Source: an uncultured virus (IMG/VR IMGVR_UViG_3300010334_000053)
Lineage: Duplodnaviria > Heunggongvirae > Uroviricota > Caudoviricetes
Length of the DNA stretch: 20,000 bases
Virus record (IMG/VR): IMGVR_UViG_3300010334_000053
Strand: one strand, 5' to 3'
In this document: positions 1-19,863 of the stretch, in pieces
Layout of the letters: each line of letters starts with the position of its first letter
How positions within the stretch are numbered: the first letter of the stretch is position 1
Notes under the pieces: model-generated
The model's database searches: none
What the model was told of the DNA's origin: nothing
The model's input: the letters and a program-made list of their open reading frames with translations, nothing else
Made by a program: the position numbers and the translations under genes

Positions 1-49
1 CAAATAAAACAGCACCGCAGGCAAATCCTGCAACGAAACTCCATGTCAT
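1..49 (-). CDS. N-terminus of a small hydrophobic protein (MTWSFVAGFACGAVLF...), runs off the window
   Basis: ATG overlaps the ligase stop (TAATG coupling); frame open to the window edge. Confidence 0.55.
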   Translation of the reverse strand, partial: MTWSFVAGFACGAVLF

Positions 50-939
50 TACATAGTCTCCAACGATTCACGAACCCAAGCAAGTCGGGCTTGCTCGTCC
101 ATTTCAGTGTACTCAACGATATTAGCGCGGATCTTGTCGATCAGCGGATAATACTCTTCGTCAATTTGCTGCTTGATCTGATCACTCATCAGCTTGTCAG
201 TACGCGGATTGCGAGCAACCCACTTGCTGGTCAAGTAATACGGCGACTTGATCTTAGCAGCAATACCGTCTTCAGTGTAGAACACAAACCCTTCGTGCTT
301 GACGTTCTTCACAGCCTTGAGAAGTTCACCTACCGTAGTACGCACACCCAGAACAGGCAGGCAACCAAACTGAATACCAAACACAGCAAGAGCATGTGAA
401 TCCAACCTCACCGGGCTATCCCATTCCTTCAAACGGTAGCCGATCAAGTACATGCCTTCTTCTTCAGGAACAATATGCGGATCATTGCGATGCACACATT
501 CAAACATGAAAGTTAGGCGAGGATTTGCACGGCAAATTTCACGATACACATCCACGTCAATAAGCTCACGAGCCATTGCACAGAAGTCGCTGTCCAGGCT
601 ACCGGTAGTGCTCACAAGGATATCTCCATTGTGCCAGGTAACCGAAACCATGAAGCCGTTGATCTTGCGATAAGCGTCAACAACAGTGTCGTCGCTTAAC
701 TTAGGAGCCTTCTTTTCGACACCGTAGTTGTAGACCTTGGTAAAGGGACGAGAAACAATGTTGAAGTCCTGGTCGATCACAGTGCCGCGGCATTCCTCAA
801 GGAAGCGATTCCACAGATCGTCGTAAAATACGCGCTTGGTGTACTTGAGCACAAACAAACCTGGATATGCTTCACTTTCACGCATTTTAACCAGCTTGGG
901 ATTCTTTTCAACCCAATTCTTAAGTTCGATCTTGTTCAT
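49..939 (-). CDS. RNA ligase, T4 Rnl1-like nucleotidyltransferase
   Basis: Motif I KING, SRPFTKVYN, FECV, EGFV, KIKS; sigma70 promoter upstream. Confidence 0.85.
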   Translation of the reverse strand: MNKIELKNWVEKNPKLVKMRESEAYPGLFVLKYTKRVFYDDLWNRFLEECRGTVIDQDFNIVSRPFTKVYNYGVEKKAPKLSDDTVVDAYRKINGFMVSVTWHNGDILVSTTGSLDSDFCAMARELIDVDVYREICRANPRLTFMFECVHRNDPHIVPEEEGMYLIGYRLKEWDSPVRLDSHALAVFGIQFGCLPVLGVRTTVGELLKAVKNVKHEGFVFYTEDGIAAKIKSPYYLTSKWVARNPRTDKLMSDQIKQQIDEEYYPLIDKIRANIVEYTEMDEQARLAWVRESLETM

Positions 940-3006: not shown

Positions 3007-3074
3007 AATAATGGTGCGAATCGCGACAGTGGGGATTGTCCATTCGCTCTAACAGTTTAGAAGGAACTATCAGT
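3005..3074 (+). promoter_or_regulatory. late promoter (TAAATA) plus structured leader of endonuclease gene
   Basis: GCGAAT/ATTCGC stem, inner GACA/TGTC, TCTAA, AGTT/AACT hairpin over the RBS; covaries with 1044-1112. Confidence 0.65.
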
Positions 3075-3701
3075 ATGAATATTTATTACGTCTATGCTTA
3101 TCTCCGTAAGAAAGATCTCACACCATATTATATCGGTAAAGGTAAAGATAATCGTGCTTATCGCAAACATAATGTACCTGTACCAAGGGATAGGTCTATG
3201 ATTGTTTTTCTAGAAACAGGATTAACCAATATTGGTGCCTGCGCATTAGAACGACGCTATATCAGGTGGTATGGACGAAAAGATTTAGGTACAGGAATAT
3301 TGCGAAATAGAACTGATGGCGGCGACGGTATACCGGGAATCTTGCACACAGTTGAACGAAATCAAAAAATTAGTAAAAAACTAAAAGGTAAATTTGTATC
3401 AGAAACTACTAGAAAAAGACTTAGTGATTCTCATATAGGAAAACAAACAGGATCTAATAATGGAATGTTTGGTAAAACTCATTCTGAAAAAGTAAAGAAT
3501 GATCATAGATTGCGTATGATAGGTAATAAAAATAGTCTAGGAAATAAGCATACCGAAGAAGCTAGATTAAAGCAATCACTACGTGCTAAGAATAGGGAAA
3601 TTAAAATATGTCCCCACTGTGGATTTGGATGTACTGGATCAAATTATACAAGATGGCATGGGGATAATTGTAAAAAATTAGGTCAAAAAAATATTGGGTA
3701 G
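3075..3701 (+). CDS. GIY-YIG homing endonuclease with NUMOD3 motifs
   Basis: [28 protein letters not shown] repeats, CPHC..RWHGDNC; start moved to ATG 3075 after AAGGA. Confidence 0.85.
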
Positions 3702-3733: not shown

Positions 3734-5158
3734 TTAGATGTCGTATCGTGGATCCATGATAGTTGACATCATAATTCCCACCGGCGTAAATTTATCCATT
3801 TCTGCTGACAGTATGGACTTCATAATAGCCGGAGAAAATCCGCTCACAAGTGCCGCACCGCTCTTGTCTGCCTTCACAGGAACATTATCTGAACTGTTAA
3901 GATTCCAAAATACTATTGCAGGAACCTGATATCCCGCTTCTGCGTACTTGCGTTCAATCATTTCCATAGCAGAATCATCATTTCTGATGCACTGATTGAA
4001 CTGCATATCACTGAGCACCAAAAGGATCTCAGGCATTTCACTCTGAGGTACACCGTTCTTGACTGCAACATCAAGAATCTTGTTGAATGCAGCGTGTAGG
4101 TTAGTACTCATGCCCCATTCGCTCTTGACCATCTGTGCAGCCTTTTCAACAACATTGCCCTTGAGAGTAACTAGCTGAGGACTGGAACTGAAAGTAAGGA
4201 AAGTGTCCTTGAACTTGCCAGTGTTCTTGTCCGCAAGATAGAGACCCAGTGAAACTGCAACGTCAAGGCAAGTAACCTCACTCTTAGAAGAGCTACCACC
4301 TGCACGACAAGTCATAGAACCCGAAACGTCAACCAGTGGAAGGATGTTTGCATCCCCAACGTAGTTAGGAAGCGCATTCCACTGTGCCACAACATGGTCA
4401 AGTTCAGTCTTACCAAGTGCTACGCGACTGTAAGGATTGATTACACCCTTGAGAACGTCATACGGATACACTGCGCCAGCGTTGACCTTTACAGTAGGAT
4501 CACCCTTTACCAGCTTGGCAACATACTCGGCAAACTTTGGAGTATTGCGAGTAAAAGCCTTCTTGTAGCGCGAAGCTGCAAGACTAGGAACATGGTTAAA
4601 GTTGATGTTATCCCAATCCTTAGAACACATCTGAGTTTCAACAACCCGGGTCAGGTTAACCAGCGTCTTACGATACTGCTTAGGGCTCATACCAAGTGCA
4701 GATCGAAGTTCTGCTGCCACTGCGCCCTTGCGAGGCATCCACTTGGCGCAAAGACCATTGCCACTGGCAAGTGCATCTGCGATCAGTGCGTATGCTTCGG
4801 TCTTGAGATCGATGGTTTCAAAGACGAGTAGATCGTCCCATCGACCAATTTCTGGTACCTTTGCAAGAAGTGCCTTTGCTGCATCGGTGTCAGTCTTTTC
4901 CAGCTGAACAAGGATGTCACGGAAAATCTTACGTTCGCCTGCACCGCCACGAGCGTCACGCGCCCACTGTGCAACGCGCAGTGCAATTTCTCGATTTTCC
5001 ACGAATGCGCCAGTGAAGGCAGGCACGATGTCCTTGCCACGCGATCCGCCAACGGCAAAGAAAAGGTCGACGTTCTTGGACGCTGACGACTTAAGAGCCT
5101 TCATACCATTTGCAGTCCTTGCAGATTGATTTGCAACCGCTTCAATAAAAGTAGACAT
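3734..5158 (-). CDS. Ro60/TROVE-like protein (DUF2828-type helical domain plus C-terminal VWA)
   Basis: RDARGGAGER, GRWDDL, AKWMPR, MIDAS DVSGSM, LSDMQF, FWNL, LVSGFS motifs. Confidence 0.8.
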   Translation of the reverse strand: MSTFIEAVANQSARTANGMKALKSSASKNVDLFFAVGGSRGKDIVPAFTGAFVENREIALRVAQWARDARGGAGERKIFRDILVQLEKTDTDAAKALLAKVPEIGRWDDLLVFETIDLKTEAYALIADALASGNGLCAKWMPRKGAVAAELRSALGMSPKQYRKTLVNLTRVVETQMCSKDWDNINFNHVPSLAASRYKKAFTRNTPKFAEYVAKLVKGDPTVKVNAGAVYPYDVLKGVINPYSRVALGKTELDHVVAQWNALPNYVGDANILPLVDVSGSMTCRAGGSSSKSEVTCLDVAVSLGLYLADKNTGKFKDTFLTFSSSPQLVTLKGNVVEKAAQMVKSEWGMSTNLHAAFNKILDVAVKNGVPQSEMPEILLVLSDMQFNQCIRNDDSAMEMIERKYAEAGYQVPAIVFWNLNSSDNVPVKADKSGAALVSGFSPAIMKSILSAEMDKFTPVGIMMSTIMDPRYDI

Positions 5159-8136: not shown

Positions 8137-8214
8137 TGGTGATGCCAGTAGGACTCGAACCTACGACCTAAAGATTAGAAGTCTTTTGCTCTATTCCAGC
8201 TGAGCTATGGCACC
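8137..8214 (-). tRNA. tRNA-Arg(TCT)
   Basis: AAAGA-CTTCTAA-TCTTT, CCA. Confidence 0.93.
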
Positions 8215-9112: not shown

Positions 9113-9189
9113 TGGTGCTCCTAACAGGATTCGAACCTGTGGCCTCAAGATTAGGAATCGTGCGCTCTATCCTGCTGAGCTATAGGAGC
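9113..9189 (-). tRNA. tRNA-Arg(CCT)
   Basis: Loop TTCCTAA, canonical D and T arms, CCA. Confidence 0.9.
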
Positions 9190-11058: not shown

Positions 11059-11087
11059 ATTATATGATAGTTATTAGATATTGTCAA
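11059..11087 (-). promoter_or_regulatory. consensus sigma70 promoter heading the tRNA run
   Basis: TTGACA-17 nt-TATAAT. Confidence 0.85.
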
Positions 11088-11815
11088 GAATTTTTGTTTA
11101 AAATTCCAAGAATGTGCTGAACAGCAATATATTTAGCATGGCGATCACCTAGGCCACGTAATGCACTGTTGATAGACCGTGTTGCGGCCTGTGTATTGTC
11201 AAAATTGTCAATTTTAGGACTGACCCGATTTTTCCAATACCAAACCGAAACTTTTGCGGCAACTTCTGGTTTTTCAAGAATTTCAGGATGTTGCTCAAGT
11301 GGCAATCCTAGTGCATTGCCTGCTTTGCGATAATTCTCTCTGCCAGTTAATTGAATATATCCTCTACCGATATACCGTTGACCGTCTCCTGGCCGAGTAT
11401 TGCCTAATCTTTTTGCTTTTTCAGGATTATGTTTTATATCGTATTTTTTAAAATATGCACTATTGCCTATTTCTTGCAATTGCGAAAAATTTAAAGATTC
11501 ATGTGCGCATTGTGCTAAAAATTGTGCAAGTTCTCTGCCCTTTAATCCAGCACCTCGCGCAGCACTGACTAAGGTCTTTCCAGCAACGGTATTAAAAGCA
11601 GCTAACAACTCACTGACCTTTTCAGGATTAGCTTTAATTTTTGGTATTTCCAATTTAACGGAGCTAGATTTTTCTGATGCAGAATTTGGATTATTTTGCA
11701 TTGCTGCATATCCTCCAAGTGCAGCAGTGCCTAACGCTCCTGCTGCAACTGCACCCTTGGCCCATTTAGACAGAGCTTCGTCAATTTGCTCTTCTATGAG
11801 TTCTGAAATTCGCAC
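11084..11815 (-). CDS. glycoside hydrolase family 19 (chitinase-like) peptidoglycan hydrolase
   Basis: FLAQCAHES, GRGYIQLTGRENY, WYW, SIN; N-terminal Ala/Gly-rich hydrophobic helix. Confidence 0.85.
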   Translation of the reverse strand: MRISELIEEQIDEALSKWAKGAVAAGALGTAALGGYAAMQNNPNSASEKSSSVKLEIPKIKANPEKVSELLAAFNTVAGKTLVSAARGAGLKGRELAQFLAQCAHESLNFSQLQEIGNSAYFKKYDIKHNPEKAKRLGNTRPGDGQRYIGRGYIQLTGRENYRKAGNALGLPLEQHPEILEKPEVAAKVSVWYWKNRVSPKIDNFDNTQAATRSINSALRGLGDRHAKYIAVQHILGILNKNS

Positions 11816-12536: not shown

Positions 12537-13895
12537 TTATGACCAGTCGTCTTTGGGAACTTCTTTTTTATAGCTTTGAAGATGCTTGACAATCTTTTTC
12601 AAATATAGCTTCCAAACTTTTAAAAATTGAAGTTCTCTAGCAGATGGATTTGAATTTTGCATTGCCTGCTTTGCTGTAGGAGCAATTATTGATGGATAAG
12701 TATTATTTGGAAAATATCCCCACTTGACATCCTCAATTGCCGAATCAACGAATTCATTGACCTGACGCTGTTTATCATTTGTGGAATATGAATATCGAAA
12801 AGGCTCATTAGAGATGAAGTCCGAGTACAACTGGGTGGCAGCATGTGAAGCATGTGCTTCAATTTCATTGACAGAACCTAAATATGCTGCCCAGCGATCT
12901 ACATTGTATCCAAAATTGTCAGCATCATATGCATTTTGACCTCTCCTACCACCACGATATTTGCGGCGCCGGTTGTCTTTTTGACCGGCTTTTCCTCTTG
13001 TGTCATTTTTGTCATAAGCATAAAGTTTTGGCCTAGGAACACTTGTATCAGGAATCTTGGTGTAATCGCCTTTTCCATATCCACGGTTAGATGACTGCAT
13101 CTTGATATTAGCACGAGCATTCTGATCCATATGAACAACTTCGTGTACGTAAGTACTGACTAATTCTTTAAGAAATGCAGGGACAGGATTATCAACGCCA
13201 CTATCTCCATAACGATTTACGGAATCCCTTTCCAATAATCTGTGGGTTAATACAGTCCATAATTTTTCTTTAGAAGTATATATATTGATGTGCTGCGCAA
13301 GATCGTTCTGCCAATCAATTTGTTGTGACGATCTGCTATGTAAAGTGGATTTTTGTGGAAGACGTTGAAAATACCCGCCGCCAGTCTTTGGTTCGCCAGT
13401 GCGTTTATTTTTGCCAGTTGTGTCAAGTTGAACAATGATGTGCTGAAGCCAATACAAGTTCTTCTTTCTGTTTTCTTCCCATGGCTCATCATGTTTATAT
13501 TGTTCAATCTTACCAAACTGTGCTTCCATGTAATCACGTGCCAAATCCTGTAGATGAAGTTCCATTACATCAATGAATTCATCTACAATATCAATATTCG
13601 GCTCACTTTTGTATAGTTTTGATTGCACGATGCCACTGAGATCTTGTGACTTATATTGAAGATTGGATACAAGTTTATCTTCCTCACGCCGATCTAATCC
13701 ACGACCACGAATTTCTTCAACTCTATTTTCAAGAGAACTCATCTTTTTAAAGTAATTGCCTTCTCCTACTGAATCAAAAATAGATTCAGCATTCCACCTA
13801 ATAAATTGATCGATTTCTCGGGTAAGAAGATCATACGTGGCCTGAGTTAAGCCTGCTGTTTGATCGATTGCTTCTATGAGTTCTGTAATACGCAT
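12537..13895 (-). CDS. late protein with putative zinc metallopeptidase motif
   Basis: HEVVH plus downstream EIEAH; ATAAATA just before ATG. Confidence 0.65.
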   Translation of the reverse strand: MRITELIEAIDQTAGLTQATYDLLTREIDQFIRWNAESIFDSVGEGNYFKKMSSLENRVEEIRGRGLDRREEDKLVSNLQYKSQDLSGIVQSKLYKSEPNIDIVDEFIDVMELHLQDLARDYMEAQFGKIEQYKHDEPWEENRKKNLYWLQHIIVQLDTTGKNKRTGEPKTGGGYFQRLPQKSTLHSRSSQQIDWQNDLAQHINIYTSKEKLWTVLTHRLLERDSVNRYGDSGVDNPVPAFLKELVSTYVHEVVHMDQNARANIKMQSSNRGYGKGDYTKIPDTSVPRPKLYAYDKNDTRGKAGQKDNRRRKYRGGRRGQNAYDADNFGYNVDRWAAYLGSVNEIEAHASHAATQLYSDFISNEPFRYSYSTNDKQRQVNEFVDSAIEDVKWGYFPNNTYPSIIAPTAKQAMQNSNPSARELQFLKVWKLYLKKIVKHLQSYKKEVPKDDWS

Positions 13896-13908
13896 GTTGT
13901 ATTTATCA

Positions 13909-13984
13909 TGGTGCTGTATGACGGAATCGAACCGCCGACATCCTGATTACTAAACAGGTACTCTACCAACTGAGTTAATACAGC
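13909..13984 (-). tRNA. tRNA-Thr(AGT)
   Basis: Loop TTAGTAA, canonical D and T arms, CCA. Confidence 0.85.
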
Positions 13985-13995
13985 ATTAATTTTGG

Positions 13996-14074
13996 TGGAG
14001 CGCCAGACAGGATTCGAACCTGCATGTGATCCATTAGCTTTCTCCTGATTCGAAGTCAGGCGGCGTACTGGCGC
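13996..14074 (-). tRNA. D-armless tRNA-Arg(TCG)-like RNA
   Basis: GCGCCAG/CTGGCGC, 7-nt connector, CCTGA-CTTCGAA-TCAGG, 20-nt variable region, canonical T arm. Confidence 0.7.
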
Positions 14075-14091
14075 ATTTTTTATATGATAAT

Positions 14092-14280
14092 TTATCGAAA
14101 AGTTTTTCGACGAGGACCTTTGTCCCTATTAGGAATGGCATGATGTCTGGCCCAGGCCTCGTCTGTAAACCCAGGGCCGTACTTTGCCAAAAGAACTTCT
14201 GCTTCGCCTGAACTTACCAGAGACATCCATTCCTGATGATCATATCGTACTCCTGACTTTGATAATGTAATAGCTGGCAT
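14092..14280 (-). CDS. small hypothetical protein
   Basis: AAGGAAG RBS; lies between tRNAs. Confidence 0.6.
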   Translation of the reverse strand: MPAITLSKSGVRYDHQEWMSLVSSGEAEVLLAKYGPGFTDEAWARHHAIPNRDKGPRRKTFR

Positions 14281-14299
14281 TCTTTCTTCCTTTATTTGA

Positions 14300-14375
14300 T
14301 GGTGCGCATGGCAAGAGTTGAACTTGCGACCTACGAGTTATCAGCTCGTTGCTACTACCACTGAGCTACACGCGC
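14300..14375 (-). tRNA. tRNA-Ile(GAT)
   Basis: ACGAG-CTGATAA-CTCGT, CCA. Confidence 0.9.
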
Positions 14376-14381
14376 ATTTAA

Positions 14382-14579
14382 TTAGTTTTCAATTATTCCT
14401 GTTACCCAGTTTTCAGCGGTATCCTCCGCGTACCGCATTGAATGTTCAGAAACATCGATAAGTTTAGCTGGATATTGTTGAACATAACATTCAACTTTTA
14501 ATCCCGCTTCGTCTTTGAAAATAATGGCACTGCGATCACTGTGATCAGAATCGCCATTATACTTTGAAATAATTTCCAT
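14382..14579 (-). CDS. small hypothetical phage protein
   Basis: GAGG RBS; HSMRYAEDTAENWV motif. Confidence 0.65.
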   Translation of the reverse strand: MEIISKYNGDSDHSDRSAIIFKDEAGLKVECYVQQYPAKLIDVSEHSMRYAEDTAENWVTGIIEN

Positions 14580-14596
14580 TAATACCTCTTAAATAC

Positions 14597-14670
14597 TGGA
14601 TGCCCCCCTTGGATTCGAACCAAGATTGACGGATTCAAAGTCCGCGCTCTTACCTTTAGAGGAAGGGGCA
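14597..14670 (-). tRNA. tRNA-Gln(TTG)
   Basis: GCGGA-CTTTGAA-TCCGT, U1-A72, CCA. Confidence 0.9.
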
Positions 14671-14687
14671 ACATTAATTATTTGTGT

Positions 14688-14716
14688 ATTATATACGCTG
14701 TTGATTATGATGTCAA
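14688..14716 (-). promoter_or_regulatory. consensus sigma70 promoter
   Basis: TTGACA-17 nt-TATAAT. Confidence 0.85.
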
Positions 14717-14750
14717 TTGGTATTATTCAAATTATTTTGTAAAGTTAGTG

Positions 14751-14823
14751 ATGCTCTCCCAGGGGTCGAACCTGGAACCTTCTGAGTCAGAGTCAGACGT
14801 GCTGCCAATTGCACCAGAGAGCA
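14751..14823 (-). tRNA. tRNA-Gln(CTG), CCA not encoded
   Basis: TCTGA-CTCTGAC-TCAGA; TGCTCTC/GAGAGCA acceptor. Confidence 0.88.
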
Positions 14824-14828
14824 ATAAA

Positions 14829-15308
14829 TTATTTTTCTTGCCTTAAGGAAAAAACTTCTATTGCGGCTAGAATGTGTTCATCCTGTAGACCTTCGCCGTC
14901 TTCAATATACACTAGCCGTTTAGATTCAGTAAACTTTCTGTCATCAAAGCAAACCCAATCGCATTCACCATTGTCAGCGATCCACTGATTAATGGCAATT
15001 AATCTACCAATACCACGAACAGTGCTTGTCACATCTGTATAATCAATGTTCGGAAAAATTGTTCTCCAATCATTGTGAAAATGTGTTGGATCAATTCCCC
15101 AATGTATTAAATCTTCTTTTAAAGTTTTTCCATAGGGCAAGTGATAATTGTGCATGGAGTTGGTTACAATTTTTGCACCAGACTCAAGGCACAGATCATT
15201 GAGCAATTGAATTGAAACTTTATTACAAGCTAACCGCAGTTCAGATACCATGACTAGAGAACTTACATTAATTATTGGACCATCAATATCTAAAAATATT
15301 ATTCTCAT
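14829..15308 (-). CDS. HAD-family phosphatase (Swiss-Army-Knife RNA-repair type)
   Basis: IFLDIDG, IVTNS, R..AI..W, CFDD, GL motifs. Confidence 0.72.
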   Translation of the reverse strand: MRIIFLDIDGPIINVSSLVMVSELRLACNKVSIQLLNDLCLESGAKIVTNSMHNYHLPYGKTLKEDLIHWGIDPTHFHNDWRTIFPNIDYTDVTSTVRGIGRLIAINQWIADNGECDWVCFDDRKFTESKRLVYIEDGEGLQDEHILAAIEVFSLRQEK

Positions 15309-16186
15309 CTTTTAATTAATTCTTCTGTTAAGTCTATAAAACGAGAAAAGTCATGTAGCTTGTTCTTCCAATCATCAGGAATGTTCGAAAGGCCATAAAA
15401 TGCACCAGCAATTTGTCCAGTAACTGCGGCAACAGTGTCAGTGTCATTGCCCAAGTTAGTGGCAAGTAAAATTGCATCTCGAAAATTATCTGTTTGATAC
15501 ACGCACCATAGGGCAGCATGAAGAGTATGGATAACATATCCAGATGATGAAACATGATCACGACCAACTTCAAGTGATGTGAGAATGTCCTTTACACTCT
15601 GTACCCAATGCTCTTTAGCAGTTATATTAAAGATGCGACTCTTTTCAGTAGCATAGATTGCATTAAGTAACACTTCCGCCATAAGTTCACATGAATGTAA
15701 ACAAGCAGGTGAAGCATGAGTTGTTTCGCTCTGTAAGTTTGCCGTTTCAATTGCCATTTCTTCATTGTCGTAATGTGCAATCACTGCTGGACTCAGGCGC
15801 ATAATTGAACCGTTGCCGGCGTTATATACAGACTTGTTGTTAGTTACTGAGCCAGTTTCAACATAATCCATAATACCACTAATAGTAGTGTTGCCAATGT
15901 CAAAACACCTACCAGTTGATGAGTTTGTTCCATTACTGTACCAATCTACAAAACGATCCAGCAAATCAGCTTTATCAAGCTGGGAATTAGCGATAAGACT
16001 TTCTGCAAGGCAAAGTGCCATACTAGTATCGTCAGTCCAATAACCTACAGGAAGATTGAACGGTCCACCACCAAGCATGTCAGTAACAGGTTCAAAAGTA
16101 TCACGTTCTCTAAATTCCACGGCGGCGCCAACACAGTCTCCAATAGCAAGCCCAATAAATGCTCCAGCTAATTTGTCTTTTAACAT
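15305..16186 (-). CDS. ADP-ribosylglycohydrolase (DraG/ARH family)
   Basis: GDCVG, WTDDT, GNGSIMR, TTH, DTDTVAAVTGQIAGA. Confidence 0.92.
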   Translation of the reverse strand: MLKDKLAGAFIGLAIGDCVGAAVEFRERDTFEPVTDMLGGGPFNLPVGYWTDDTSMALCLAESLIANSQLDKADLLDRFVDWYSNGTNSSTGRCFDIGNTTISGIMDYVETGSVTNNKSVYNAGNGSIMRLSPAVIAHYDNEEMAIETANLQSETTHASPACLHSCELMAEVLLNAIYATEKSRIFNITAKEHWVQSVKDILTSLEVGRDHVSSSGYVIHTLHAALWCVYQTDNFRDAILLATNLGNDTDTVAAVTGQIAGAFYGLSNIPDDWKNKLHDFSRFIDLTEELIKR

Positions 16187-19001: not shown

Positions 19002-19757
19002 ATGAAAATAAAAGATCTTTTAAATGAAACCGCTATACAAGAGGGTCCGTATGATCCTCACATTTTTAAAGCAGTTTTTATGGCCGGAGCACCAGGTGCT
19101 GGTAAAACAACTACCGCTAATAAGCTACTCTCTGGTACAGGTCTAAGACACCTCAATGTTGATGATTTTTATAATCTTATGAGACATAAAGGACGCGCTA
19201 GTGGCGATCAAAACAAGGATTACGAAGCATCTTGGAAAACGTATCGCGGCCTAGAAGAATTACTTCGTCAAGGTCGAATTGGTTTAATCATTGATAGTAC
19301 TGCGAAGAATCCAGAAAAGATGGCTGATGTTAAAGCAGACCTAGAAGAAATGGGTTATGAGACTGCAATGATTTTCGTTAACTCATCATTAGAAACAAGT
19401 CTCAAAAGAGCCGCTGAACGTTCACAACGTCCTGGTCCAGACTTTGGAAGAGTAACTCCACCAAAACATATTGAAGATACCTGGAATAAGGTGCAAAAGG
19501 GAATAGGTTCATTACAGAACTTATTTGGAGCAAGGTTCTTTGTTATCGATGCTGAACGTCCCGATGCCAGCATTAACTATGTTGACAAGAGTATTAGATC
19601 TTGGCTTAACACGCCAGTTAAAACACAGGCAGCACGACAGTGGTTATCTGATCCTAAAGCTGCACAAAAGCAAACAAGCACAAAGCCAGCAAAAGATGAA
19701 CCTGCACAAACAACAGGTCAACGCCCTGCTGAACCGGAAACTCCCAAAGAAGTATAA
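19002..19757 (+). CDS. P-loop kinase (AAA_33/zeta-toxin/polynucleotide-kinase-like)
   Basis: GAPGAGKT, NVDD, IIDST, RxxxR lid. Confidence 0.75.
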   Translation: MKIKDLLNETAIQEGPYDPHIFKAVFMAGAPGAGKTTTANKLLSGTGLRHLNVDDFYNLMRHKGRASGDQNKDYEASWKTYRGLEELLRQGRIGLIIDSTAKNPEKMADVKADLEEMGYETAMIFVNSSLETSLKRAAERSQRPGPDFGRVTPPKHIEDTWNKVQKGIGSLQNLFGARFFVIDAERPDASINYVDKSIRSWLNTPVKTQAARQWLSDPKAAQKQTSTKPAKDEPAQTTGQRPAEPETPKEV

Positions 19758-19760
19758 AAA

Positions 19761-19863
19761 CAGGATTGTGTTTTTTTAGGCGGGAATCGAACCCGCTCCG
19801 TTTGCGTTGAAAGCAAATGCTCTACCGATGAGCTACCTAATGGTTTTTTGCTGAAACAATCCT
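19761..19863 (-). ncRNA. carrier-stem ncRNA enclosing a tRNA-like cloverleaf with UCA anticodon
   Basis: AGGATTGT/ACAATCCT, CAGCAA, D arm, TTTGC-TTTCAAC-GCAAA, T arm, short acceptor, no CCA. Confidence 0.7.

What the first reader, a model, noticed from the sequence alone, without database searches (positions are those of the whole stretch)
13993..14074. D-armless tRNA-Arg(UCG) with a D-loop-like sequence in the variable region and encoded CCACCA
Seen: perfect 7-bp acceptor, anticodon and T arms, but only TACGCCG between acceptor and anticodon stem. The 20-nt variable region AGAAAGCTAATGGATCACAT contains a D-loop-like AGCTAATGGAT, and the 3' end reads T-CCA-CCA. Intact pairing elsewhere argues against random decay. 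Known: D-armless tRNAs are mainly mitochondrial. Inference: a topologically rearranged tRNA in which the GG that contacts the T loop is supplied from the variable region.
Basis: partly seen in the sequence, partly recalled or inferred. Interest (0 to 1): 0.75.

Follow-up and report, generated by a model that had tools for sequence, protein, structure and literature searches.

The report
Rewired-core arginine tRNA of phages
This phage gene encodes an arginine tRNA whose D-arm is wired in a different order from the textbook cloverleaf, and it belongs to a large, mostly unannotated class of phage arginine and isoleucine tRNAs that I could not find described.

Summary
Window 13999-14074 (- strand) is a 76-nt tRNA-like gene with anticodon UCG. 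Only 7 nt separate the acceptor and anticodon stems, and 20 nt separate the anticodon and T arms. Rfam's tRNA model scores it 40.7 bits; ARAGORN misses it.

It is not a decayed singleton. I collected 146 distinct relatives from uncultured viral contigs and cultured phages of Streptomyces, Microbacterium, Pseudomonas, Stenotrophomonas, Agrobacterium and Limnohabitans.

It is not truly D-armless. Three nt of the 5' stub pair, with covariation, with the three nt just before an almost invariant UAA(N)GG. So the D-stem survives, but segment 9-20 sits after the anticodon arm.

Members carry only Arg or Ile-type anticodons. The base after GG follows bacterial identity rules: A in 80 of 80 Arg members, U in 65 of 66 Ile-type members.

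A sister phage has a canonical tRNA-Arg(UCG) in exactly this slot. This also explains CCACCA as a replacement scar.

Two complete phage genomes encode Arg UCG, ACG and UCU only in this form.

Expression and charging are untested. Seven literature searches found no description.

The parts
14068..14074 (-). acceptor stem, 5' strand (tRNA nt 1-7)
   Evidence: Pairs 7/7 with 14000-14006. All 7 pairs covary across 41 relatives, 99.3% of cells paired.
14066..14067 (-). U8 and an invariant A, which I read as taking the place of A21
   Evidence: UA in 41 of 41 distinct sequences. This position was not fixed by the search pattern. The A21 assignment is inference.
14061..14065 (-). 5' stub, read as the 22-25 strand of the D stem plus nt 26
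   Evidence: Its 2nd to 4th nt pair with the 3 nt before UAAUGGA. In the window only 2 of these 3 pairs are standard; C with A is the third.
14044..14060 (-). anticodon arm, 5 bp plus 7-nt loop, anticodon UCG at 14051-14053
   Evidence: The stem covaries. C35 and G36 are bacterial Arg identity elements (passages of PMC9976931).
14040..14043 (-). linker (AGAA) between the anticodon stem and the relocated D-stem strand
   Evidence: By the family parse, which counts the next A (14039) as the first base of the 3-nt strand. By that parse the linker length among 147 sequences is 5 nt in 98, 4 in 34, 8 in 8, 3 in 4. The nt just before the 3-nt strand is A in 134 of 147.
14037..14039 (-). relocated 10-12 strand of the D stem (AGC)
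   Evidence: Covaries with the stub: pair types CG, GC, UA, AU. 0 of 10,000 column shuffles reach the observed pairing.
14030..14036 (-). D-loop equivalent UAAUGGA (U13, A14, A15, U16, G18, G19, A20)
   Evidence: UAA(N)GG is present in all 147 parsed sequences. The base after GG is A in 80 of 80 Arg members. A20 is the main bacterial ArgRS determinant (PMC9976931 passages).
14024..14029 (-). connector to the T stem ending in A-U, with U read as nt 48
   Evidence: The last two nt are AU in 40 of 41. A is the penultimate nt in 147 of 147. A15 with U48 occurs in 140 of 147.
14007..14023 (-). T arm, 5 bp (first pair G-U), loop UUCGAAU
13999..14006 (-). acceptor stem 3' strand and discriminator U (13999)
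13996..13998 (-). encoded CCA end
   Evidence: 42 of 80 Arg-type relatives also encode CCA.
13993..13995 (-). second CCA, read as a scar of gene replacement and not part of the tRNA
   Evidence: The sister contig L184 has a canonical tRNA-Arg(UCG) whose own last acceptor bases, discriminator and CCA make the same flank CCACCAAAA.

Best explanation
The gene encodes a working elongator tRNA-Arg(UCG) of a freshwater phage, built on a rewired core.

SHOWN:
- The acceptor, anticodon and T arms are canonical.
- The 5' connector is U8, an invariant A, one unpaired nt, a 3-nt strand and one more nt before the anticodon stem.
- That 3-nt strand pairs with 3 nt located after the anticodon arm.
- These are followed by UAAUGGA and a short connector ending in AU.

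INFERRED:
- The helix is the D stem, with the stub as 22-25 and the distal strand as 10-12(13).
- It stacks on the anticodon stem as usual.
- UAAUGGA is the D loop (A14, A15, G18, G19, A20). It docks on the T loop and presents A20.
- In effect, segment 9-20 has moved from before nt 21 to after nt 44. The L-shape and all contact surfaces are kept, but three backbone connections in the core differ.
- Host ArgRS charges it through A20, C35 and G36, and it reads CGA/CGG, perhaps all CGN.

Why phages keep this form is unknown. My best guess is escape from a nuclease or other factor that reads the canonical D-arm/core connectivity. A neutral frozen accident that spreads by cassette exchange is equally possible.
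For: 1. Family: the window gene scores 83.1 bits with a model built from relatives. The model found 56 matches (48 distinct) in 92 sources. A uniform parse of all DNA fetched gives 147 distinct sequences, one of them a mis-parse.

2. D-stem equivalent: on a MAFFT alignment not fitted to any structure, the pairs 11-44, 12-43 and 13-42 are standard in 41/41, 41/41 and 28/41 sequences. They show 4, 3 and 3 pair types. Sliding the partner by 1-3 columns drops the pairing of the whole 20-pair structure from 95.6% to 35-50%. 0 of 10,000 shuffles reach the observed 89%. In 147 sequences the figures are 146, 146 and 125 paired, with 20 different strand combinations.

3. Identity: in the scan that left the base after GG free, 28 of 28 Arg-anticodon members have A and 63 of 64 Ile-type members (UAU, GAU, CAU) have U (Fisher p 9e-23). 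Overall the counts are 80/80 and 65/66, and all 66 Ile-type members have discriminator A. This matches the bacterial identity sets: Arg uses A20, C35, U/G36; Ile uses U20, U21, G16, A73 (PMC9976931 Table 1 and passages).

4. Same slot: contig L184 has near-identical flanks (five substitutions in the stretch aligned, all more than 80 nt upstream of the gene) and a canonical tRNA-Arg(UCG) exactly where the window has the rewired one. A 19.9-kb lake-metagenome contig (run X4) shows the same replacement. Run X3, from another study, carries the rewired allele with no listed difference across 13999-14069, while its flanks differ by about 2%.

5. Complementary sets:
- In the complete 173.6-kb genome G002, ARAGORN finds 34 tRNAs in the four regions fetched, and the only canonical Arg is CCU. 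The rewired genes supply UCG, ACG and UCU.
- Streptomyces phage Mildred21 is the same in the 48 kb (70000-118000) that I inspected: annotated Arg is CCU only, with rewired UCU, UCG and ACG.
- The window has canonical Arg UCU and CCU plus the rewired UCG.
- 140 of 213 Arg codons in 16 window ORFs are CGN.
Against: - No RNA evidence. The one metatranscriptome contig laid (run X12) covers 14253-14522 only.
- Nothing shows processing, charging or ribosome use.
- RNAalifold did not predict the 3-bp helix.
- The single-sequence fold has z -1.52.
- In the window gene itself only 2 of the 3 D-stem pairs are standard. 13 of 41 relatives also lack the third pair.
- Members were gathered with sequence patterns that fixed UAAUGGA or UAA..GG and the T loop, so conservation of those letters is partly by design.
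- Relatives share ancestry, so the counts are not independent events.
- The three-dimensional mapping is reasoning from the canonical tRNA fold, not a model or a structure.
Confidence: 0.75

Rival explanations
1. It is a tRNA look-alike that is made but does not decode. It could be a decoy or sponge for host tRNA-cleaving defence enzymes, or a regulator.
For: - The gene sits among RNA-repair-type genes: RNA ligase 49-939, HAD_SAK_2 14829-15308, and a zeta/AAA_33 kinase-like gene 19002-19757.
- Phage tRNAs are reported to counter tRNA-targeting defences (abstract of PMC11555353 in the listing).
- No expression or charging data exist.
Against: - A decoy needs no match between the anticodon and the aaRS identity base, yet 80/80 and 65/66 members match.
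- It replaces a canonical tRNA-Arg(UCG) in the same slot.
- It fills the anticodons missing from otherwise near-complete phage tRNA sets.
- Nuclease resistance and decoding are not exclusive.
Confidence: 0.12
2. It is literally D-armless, as first read. The 7-nt connector is unpaired, as in animal mitochondrial tRNA-Ser(AGY), and the long variable region merely carries a GG.
For: - RNAalifold leaves the stub unpaired.
- Rfam's alignment treats the D arm as deleted.
Against: - Strong covariation between the stub and the 3 nt before UAAUGGA.
- The MFE fold of the window gene pairs them.
Confidence: 0.06
3. It is a decaying or rearranged pseudogene, or an assembly artefact.
For: ARAGORN does not call it. 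Most public records leave its relatives unannotated.
Against: - An identical sequence occurs in a separate IMG/VR record and in a run from another study.
- There are 146 distinct relatives with compensatory changes in every stem, in phages of several bacterial phyla.
Confidence: 0.02
4. The transcript is cut and re-ligated into the canonical order by phage RNA-repair enzymes.
For: RNA ligase genes lie in the window, and RNA ligase and polynucleotide kinase genes in Mildred21.
Against: - It would need two cuts and two new joins in a different order, and no motif for that was seen.
- Covariation supports the helix in the encoded order.
- I did not check whether the small phages that carry it, such as the 46-kb SOVA965, have such enzymes.
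Confidence: 0.02

Closest known systems
Canonical bacterial and phage tRNA-Arg (Rfam RF00005), for example the allele in sister contig L184 and the window's own tRNA-Arg(UCU) 8137-8214 and tRNA-Arg(CCU) 9113-9189
   Same: 7/5 acceptor-T minihelix, 5-bp anticodon stem, 7-nt loop, Arg anticodon, GGA (A20), UUCGAAU T loop, total length about 76 nt, encoded CCA, and the same genomic slot.
   Different: There is no D hairpin at nt 10-25. The 10-20 segment lies after the anticodon arm, so the D stem is closed by long-range pairing around the anticodon arm.
D-arm-lacking mitochondrial tRNAs of animals: type III mt-tRNA-Ser(AGY) and nematode mt-tRNAs (review PMC7609411, passages read)
   Same: A short connector between the acceptor and anticodon stems. 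Standard cloverleaf finders fail on them.
   Different: By the passages read, the mitochondrial type III form lacks a D stem, and loss of the G18/G19 and T-loop motifs is stated for the commonest (type II) mitochondrial tRNAs. This family keeps GG, a canonical T loop and a D-stem equivalent. It is of normal length and occurs in phages of bacteria.
Circularly permuted tRNA genes of the red alga Cyanidioschyzon and engineered circularly permuted tRNAs (recalled from memory, no call)
   Same: The order of tRNA segments differs from the cloverleaf while the fold is thought to be kept.
   Different: In those cases the whole molecule is permuted at the gene level, and the alga processes it back to a normal tRNA. 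Here the 5' and 3' ends are normal and only the core segment 9-20 is relocated. Nothing suggests re-processing.
Class II tRNAs with long variable arms, and the 8/4 and 9/3 allo-tRNAs (PMC5389517, abstract in listing)
   Same: Extra nucleotides between the anticodon and T arms. A non-standard natural tRNA shape found by mining metagenomes.
   Different: A class II variable arm is a self-contained hairpin beside a normal D arm. Allo-tRNAs change stem lengths, not connectivity.

Membership tests
tRNA (Rfam RF00005, canonical cloverleaf) | Score at or above the family's gathering threshold | tested here: met
   40.7 bits against 29.
tRNA (Rfam RF00005, canonical cloverleaf) | D arm: a local hairpin at nt 10-25 between nt 9 and nt 26 | tested here: not met
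   The Rfam alignment deletes it. ARAGORN calls neither the window gene nor any of the 146 relatives.
tRNA (Rfam RF00005, canonical cloverleaf) | 7-bp acceptor stem, 5-bp anticodon stem with 7-nt loop, 5-bp T stem with a T-loop of the UUCRANU type | tested here: met
   All three stems covary.
tRNA (Rfam RF00005, canonical cloverleaf) | Is transcribed, processed, aminoacylated and used by the ribosome | not testable with these tools
   The only RNA-library contig laid does not cover the gene.
Bacterial arginine acceptor (ArgRS identity set) | A20 in the D loop, C35, U/G36, and A/G (or U) at 73 | tested here: met
   The window gene has GGA, anticodon UCG and discriminator U. 80 of 80 Arg-type relatives have A after GG. 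The rule is taken from PMC9976931. That this A occupies the position-20 pocket in space is inference.
Mitochondrial-type D-armless tRNA | No D stem, only an unpaired replacement loop | tested here: not met
   The stub pairs, with covariation, with the strand before UAAUGGA.
Class II tRNA (long variable arm) | The variable region forms its own stem-loop next to a normal D arm | tested here: not met
   No conserved hairpin within the 20 nt. RNAalifold predicts none, and there is no normal D arm.
Permuted tRNA gene (3' half encoded before 5' half) | The acceptor 5' and 3' strands are not at the ends of the gene | tested here: not met
   The acceptor strands are at the two ends, followed by the discriminator and CCA.

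The most novel reading that the evidence does not exclude
Phages carry a third structural class of elongator tRNA, beside class I and class II. In it the D-arm segment 9-20 is transposed behind the anticodon arm. The class is used for arginine and isoleucine, is charged by host ArgRS and IleRS, and moves between phages as a cassette that replaces canonical alleles. The rewiring would be maintained because it hides these tRNAs from a host or phage factor that reads the canonical core, such as a tRNA-cleaving defence nuclease, while translation still accepts them.
Probability: 0.25. Interest if true: 0.95.

Novelty: new variant of a known kind. Interest (0 to 1): 0.86.

Why it matters
All bacterial tRNAs are generally held to share one cloverleaf connectivity. 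The abstract of PMC11551756 says so (listing).

A natural, widespread tRNA class that keeps the parts but changes the wiring would show the following:
- The L-shape tolerates a different strand topology in living translation systems.
- Synthetases can read a D-loop identity base that is presented from another strand.
- There is a ready-made scaffold for tRNA engineering.

It also exposes an annotation gap. ARAGORN finds none of the 146 relatives. In the listed rows of cultured-phage records these genes are unannotated, except in Mildred21. There they are called tRNA-Phe or tRNA-OTHER. Phage Arg and Ile decoding capacity is therefore undercounted.

If the rewiring protects against tRNA-targeting defences, it would be a new kind of counter-defence.

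Tried and rejected
- Megablast of window 13000-15000 against the phage collection found no match.
- The window's own assembly is not held. The nearest record, G001, is a 14.9-kb fragment without the region.
- Expression: the RNA run X12 covers only 14253-14522, so it says nothing about this gene.
- Phage PAK_P3 sRNA1 and sRNA2 (PMC4933390, passages and supplementary table S6): sRNA2 has a T-arm-like stretch but is not this family.
- The PAK_P4 transcriptome paper (passages) gives nothing on the locus.
- T5-like Salmonella phage hits are a long-arm tRNA-Thr, not this family.
- Link to homing endonucleases: only 3 of the 42 neighbouring ORFs scanned (of 57 listed) match HNH or GIY-YIG (weak in one), plus annotated HNH genes beside the gene in Mildred21, SOVA965 and PAK_P2. 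This is common in phage tRNA regions, and I do not claim a link.
- The 62-aa ORF upstream (14092-14280) has no Pfam match.
- Cellular genomes: of 88 pattern matches in one genome per species, only 3 are family members. All 3 lie on MAG contigs (Mesorhizobium, Mycobacteriales, Nitrosotalea). Pfam on the Mesorhizobium flanks was uninformative.
- RNAalifold did not recover the 3-bp helix.
- Literature: seven full-text searches and passages of PMC7609411, PMC6409571 and PMC13092985 gave no description of this topology. Subscription-only papers are not in the library.

Full report
**What is in the window**

The window is a phage-type tRNA array. ARAGORN finds 17 tRNA genes, all on the - strand. The ORFs between them include:
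- an RNA ligase (49-939);
- a HAD domain of RNA-repair proteins (14829-15308);
- an ADP-ribosylglycohydrolase (15305-16186);
- a zeta/AAA_33 kinase-like protein (19002-19757);
- a class I chitinase-like lysin (11084-11815);
- a NUMOD3 protein (3036-3701).

The search tools treat the source as a virus record. Runs that hold the stretch are freshwater, lake, wastewater or unspecified metagenomes.

The flagged gene lies between tRNA-Thr(AGU) (13909-13984) and a 62-aa ORF (14092-14280). tRNA-Ile(GAU) follows at 14300-14375.

Rfam's tRNA model matches 13999-14074(-) at 40.7 bits, above its threshold of 29. It does so only by deleting the D arm and inserting 17 nt in the variable region. ARAGORN does not call the gene.

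**It is a family, not a singleton**

- A separate IMG/VR contig (L001) is identical over the 450 nt aligned. It may be the same phage.
- A sensitive BLAST against cultured phages found the whole gene at 81% identity in five Streptomyces phages (7 records). In Mildred21 it is annotated tRNA-Phe(gaa).
- Two further Streptomyces phages carry unannotated copies, one with anticodon UCU.
- A pattern made of UAAUGGA, 7-9 free nt and the T arm found 84 stretches in IMG/VR.
- 41 distinct sequences, counting the first hits, share the architecture. The others are ordinary tRNAs whose anticodon loop and stem happen to read NUAAUGGA.
- All 41 have Arg anticodons: UCU 27, UCG 8, CCU 3, ACG 2, CCG 1. The pattern did not constrain the anticodon.
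- A covariance model built from them (R1) scores the window gene at 83.1 bits.
- The model also finds further copies that lack the exact pattern. Among them is a second and third copy in one phage.

**The D stem is kept but rewired**

On the MAFFT alignment A3, which was not fitted to any structure, stub positions 2, 3 and 4 pair with the three nt just 5' of UAAUGGA.

| Pair (A3 columns) | Standard pairs | Pair types |
|---|---|---|
| 11-44 | 41/41 | CG 24, GC 7, UA 7, AU 3 |
| 12-43 | 41/41 | GC 25, CG 12, AU 4 |
| 13-42 | 28/41 | GC 15, CG 11, AU 2 |

Sliding the partners by 1-3 columns drops the pairing of the whole structure from 95.6% to 35-50%. For this helix alone, 0 of 10,000 column shuffles reach the observed 89%.

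In the uniform parse of everything fetched (147 distinct sequences, one of which is a mis-parsed ordinary tRNA), the three pairs are standard in 146, 146 and 125. There are 20 different strand combinations.

RNAfold pairs these strands in the window gene. RNAalifold does not predict the short helix.

In the window gene itself the third pair is C opposite A.

**My reading of the anatomy (inference)**

- The stub strand runs straight into the nt before the anticodon stem, exactly as 22-25 and 26 do in a normal tRNA.
- The distal strand runs straight into U-A-A-(N)-G-G-N, exactly as 10-13 run into the D loop.
- The nt after U8 is A in 41 of 41, as A21 before nt 22 would be.
- The nt before the distal strand is A in 134 of 147, as nt 9 before nt 10 would be.
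- The connector to the T stem ends in A-U in 140 of 147, with A at the D-loop position that would pair with U48.

The simplest description is that segment 9-20 has been moved from after U8 to after nt 44. Total length stays at 73-82 nt.

Origin by duplication and deletion is only a conjecture.

**Evidence that it is charged as arginine**

I ran a broader pattern that left the base after GG free. It matched 120 stretches shown, of an estimated 590 in IMG/VR.

Of the 93 distinct parsed genes:
- 28 have Arg anticodons, and all 28 have GGA;
- 64 have UAU (41), GAU (17) or CAU (6), and 63 of these have GGU;
- 1 is a mis-parsed long-arm tRNA.

Eleven further matches did not pass my parse. Some of them look like members with an imperfect acceptor stem. 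Fisher's exact p is 9e-23, although relatedness inflates this.

Over all 147 sequences, the base after GG is:
- A in 80 of 80 Arg-type members;
- U in 65 of 66 Ile-type members.

The discriminator is:
- A in all 66 Ile-type members;
- A, G or U in Arg-type members.

A scan for UAAUGG followed by a base other than A gave one family-like gene among 120 stretches. It has anticodon UAU and GGUU.

These are the bacterial identity rules: A20, C35 and U/G36 for Arg; U20, U21, G16 and A73 for Ile (PMC9976931, Table 1 and passages). A stretch that changes with the anticodon in the way synthetases require is hard to explain unless it acts as the D loop of a charged tRNA.

**Evidence that it does the job of a normal tRNA-Arg(UCG)**

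- Contig L184 (84 kb) has near-identical flanks (five substitutions in the stretch aligned, all more than 80 nt upstream of the gene) but a canonical tRNA-Arg(UCG) exactly in this slot. That allele has a normal D arm including GGA.
- A 19.9-kb contig in lake run X4 shows the same replacement: 75 nt skipped, 70 other letters in between.
- Run X3, from another study, has the rewired allele with no listed difference inside it, while its flanks differ by about 2%.
- The shared 3' flank begins CCACCAAAA. In L184 this is the last two acceptor bases, the discriminator and CCA. In the window it is the gene's own CCA followed by a left-over CCA. So CCACCA is a scar, not a signal.

Rewired and canonical genes also complement each other within genomes:
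- **G002**, a complete 173.6-kb phage genome: ARAGORN finds 34 tRNAs in the four regions fetched, and the only canonical Arg is CCU. Rewired genes supply UCG, ACG and UCU.
- **Mildred21**, in the 48 kb (70000-118000) inspected: the only annotated Arg is CCU. Rewired genes supply UCU (labelled tRNA-OTHER), UCG (labelled tRNA-Phe) and ACG (unannotated). There is also an unannotated rewired tRNA-Ile(GAU).
- **The window**: Arg UCU and CCU are canonical, and both carry GGA in a normal D loop. UCG is rewired. 140 of 213 Arg codons in 16 long ORFs are CGN.

**Distribution**

Cultured carriers confirmed with the model (7 of 7 loci, 73-85 bits):
- Pseudomonas phages PAK_P2 and phiPsa397;
- Agrobacterium phage Atu_ph04;
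- Stenotrophomonas phage SOVA965;
- Limnohabitans phage DC31;
- Streptomyces phages Comrade and Mildred21.

BLAST adds Pseudomonas putida phages, Microbacterium phages and many more Streptomyces phages. For the Ile type, 80 records match, 77 of them Streptomyces phages. None of the 40 rows listed there is annotated. One of those rows, and one further record named in the tally, are crAss-like phages.

In one genome per prokaryote species, only 3 of 88 pattern matches are members, all on MAG contigs. ARAGORN of the 146 members.

**What is not shown**

- No read or paper shows the RNA, its ends, its charging or its use in translation.
- The spatial mapping is reasoning, not a model.
- Ascertainment by patterns fixes some motifs.
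- I cannot say why the form exists. Escape from a factor that reads the canonical core is a guess. The clean swap with a canonical allele fits near-neutral exchange equally well.

**Novelty**

Seven full-text searches and three reviews or papers read in passages gave no description. One abstract states that all known bacterial tRNAs are canonical cloverleaves (PMC11551756, listing). Closed-access literature was not searchable.

An earlier follow-up in this scan saw a 'rewired' phage tRNA-Arg on other DNA and also found no description (e1-295098).

Noticed in passing
L430:3704-3780 (Mildred21 record 73703-73779); IMG/VR loci L431-L550: The same rewired topology is used by isoleucine-type tRNAs (anticodons UAU, GAU, CAU). 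These have GGU instead of GGA and discriminator A. 64 distinct examples came from one scan, and 80 matching phage records (77 of them Streptomyces phages) from BLAST, unannotated in the 40 rows listed.
   Followed up: partly
window 19772-19843 (-): A tRNA with anticodon UCA (ARAGORN labels it tRNA-SeC; Rfam tRNA 50.1 bits). It would read UGA and may be a suppressor or Trp-type tRNA of the phage.
   Followed up: no
window 49-939, 3734-5158, 14829-16186, 19002-19757: An RNA-repair-like gene set surrounds the tRNA array: RNA ligase, a DUF2828/DUF7788 protein, HAD_SAK_2, ADP-ribosylglycohydrolase, and a zeta-toxin/AAA_33-like kinase.
   Followed up: no
L181:2036-2107 (Pseudomonas phage phiPsa397): An unannotated tRNA-like gene with normal acceptor and T arms but an irregular interior (30.6 bits with my model). 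It lies between annotated tRNA-Glu and tRNA-Ile.
   Followed up: no
L002:1509-1584 and L183:1501-1575 (Mildred21): Public annotation errors. The rewired tRNA-Arg(UCG) is labelled tRNA-Phe(gaa) and the rewired tRNA-Arg(UCU) is labelled tRNA-OTHER. The ACG copy and the Ile copy are unannotated.
   Followed up: yes
family-wide: The top pair of the anticodon stem (27-43) is U opposite U in 91 of 147 members. Most members therefore have a 4-bp anticodon stem, though the window gene has 5 bp.
   Followed up: no
L005, L010, L023; Mildred21, SOVA965, PAK_P2: HNH or GIY-YIG homing-endonuclease genes lie directly beside the rewired tRNA in some phages. Only 3 of the 42 neighbouring ORFs scanned match by Pfam.
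   Followed up: partly
L186 and L187 (complete IMG/VR phage genome G002): ARAGORN reports a 95-nt tRNA-Ile(UAU) and a tRNA with anticodon CUA (labelled Pyl, an amber-reading anticodon) in the same phage.
   Followed up: no
PAK_P3 sRNA2 (supplementary table S6 of PMC4933390): The abundant late small RNA of phage PAK_P3 contains a T-arm-like stretch and may be another unrecognised tRNA-like gene. It is not a member of this family.
   Followed up: partly
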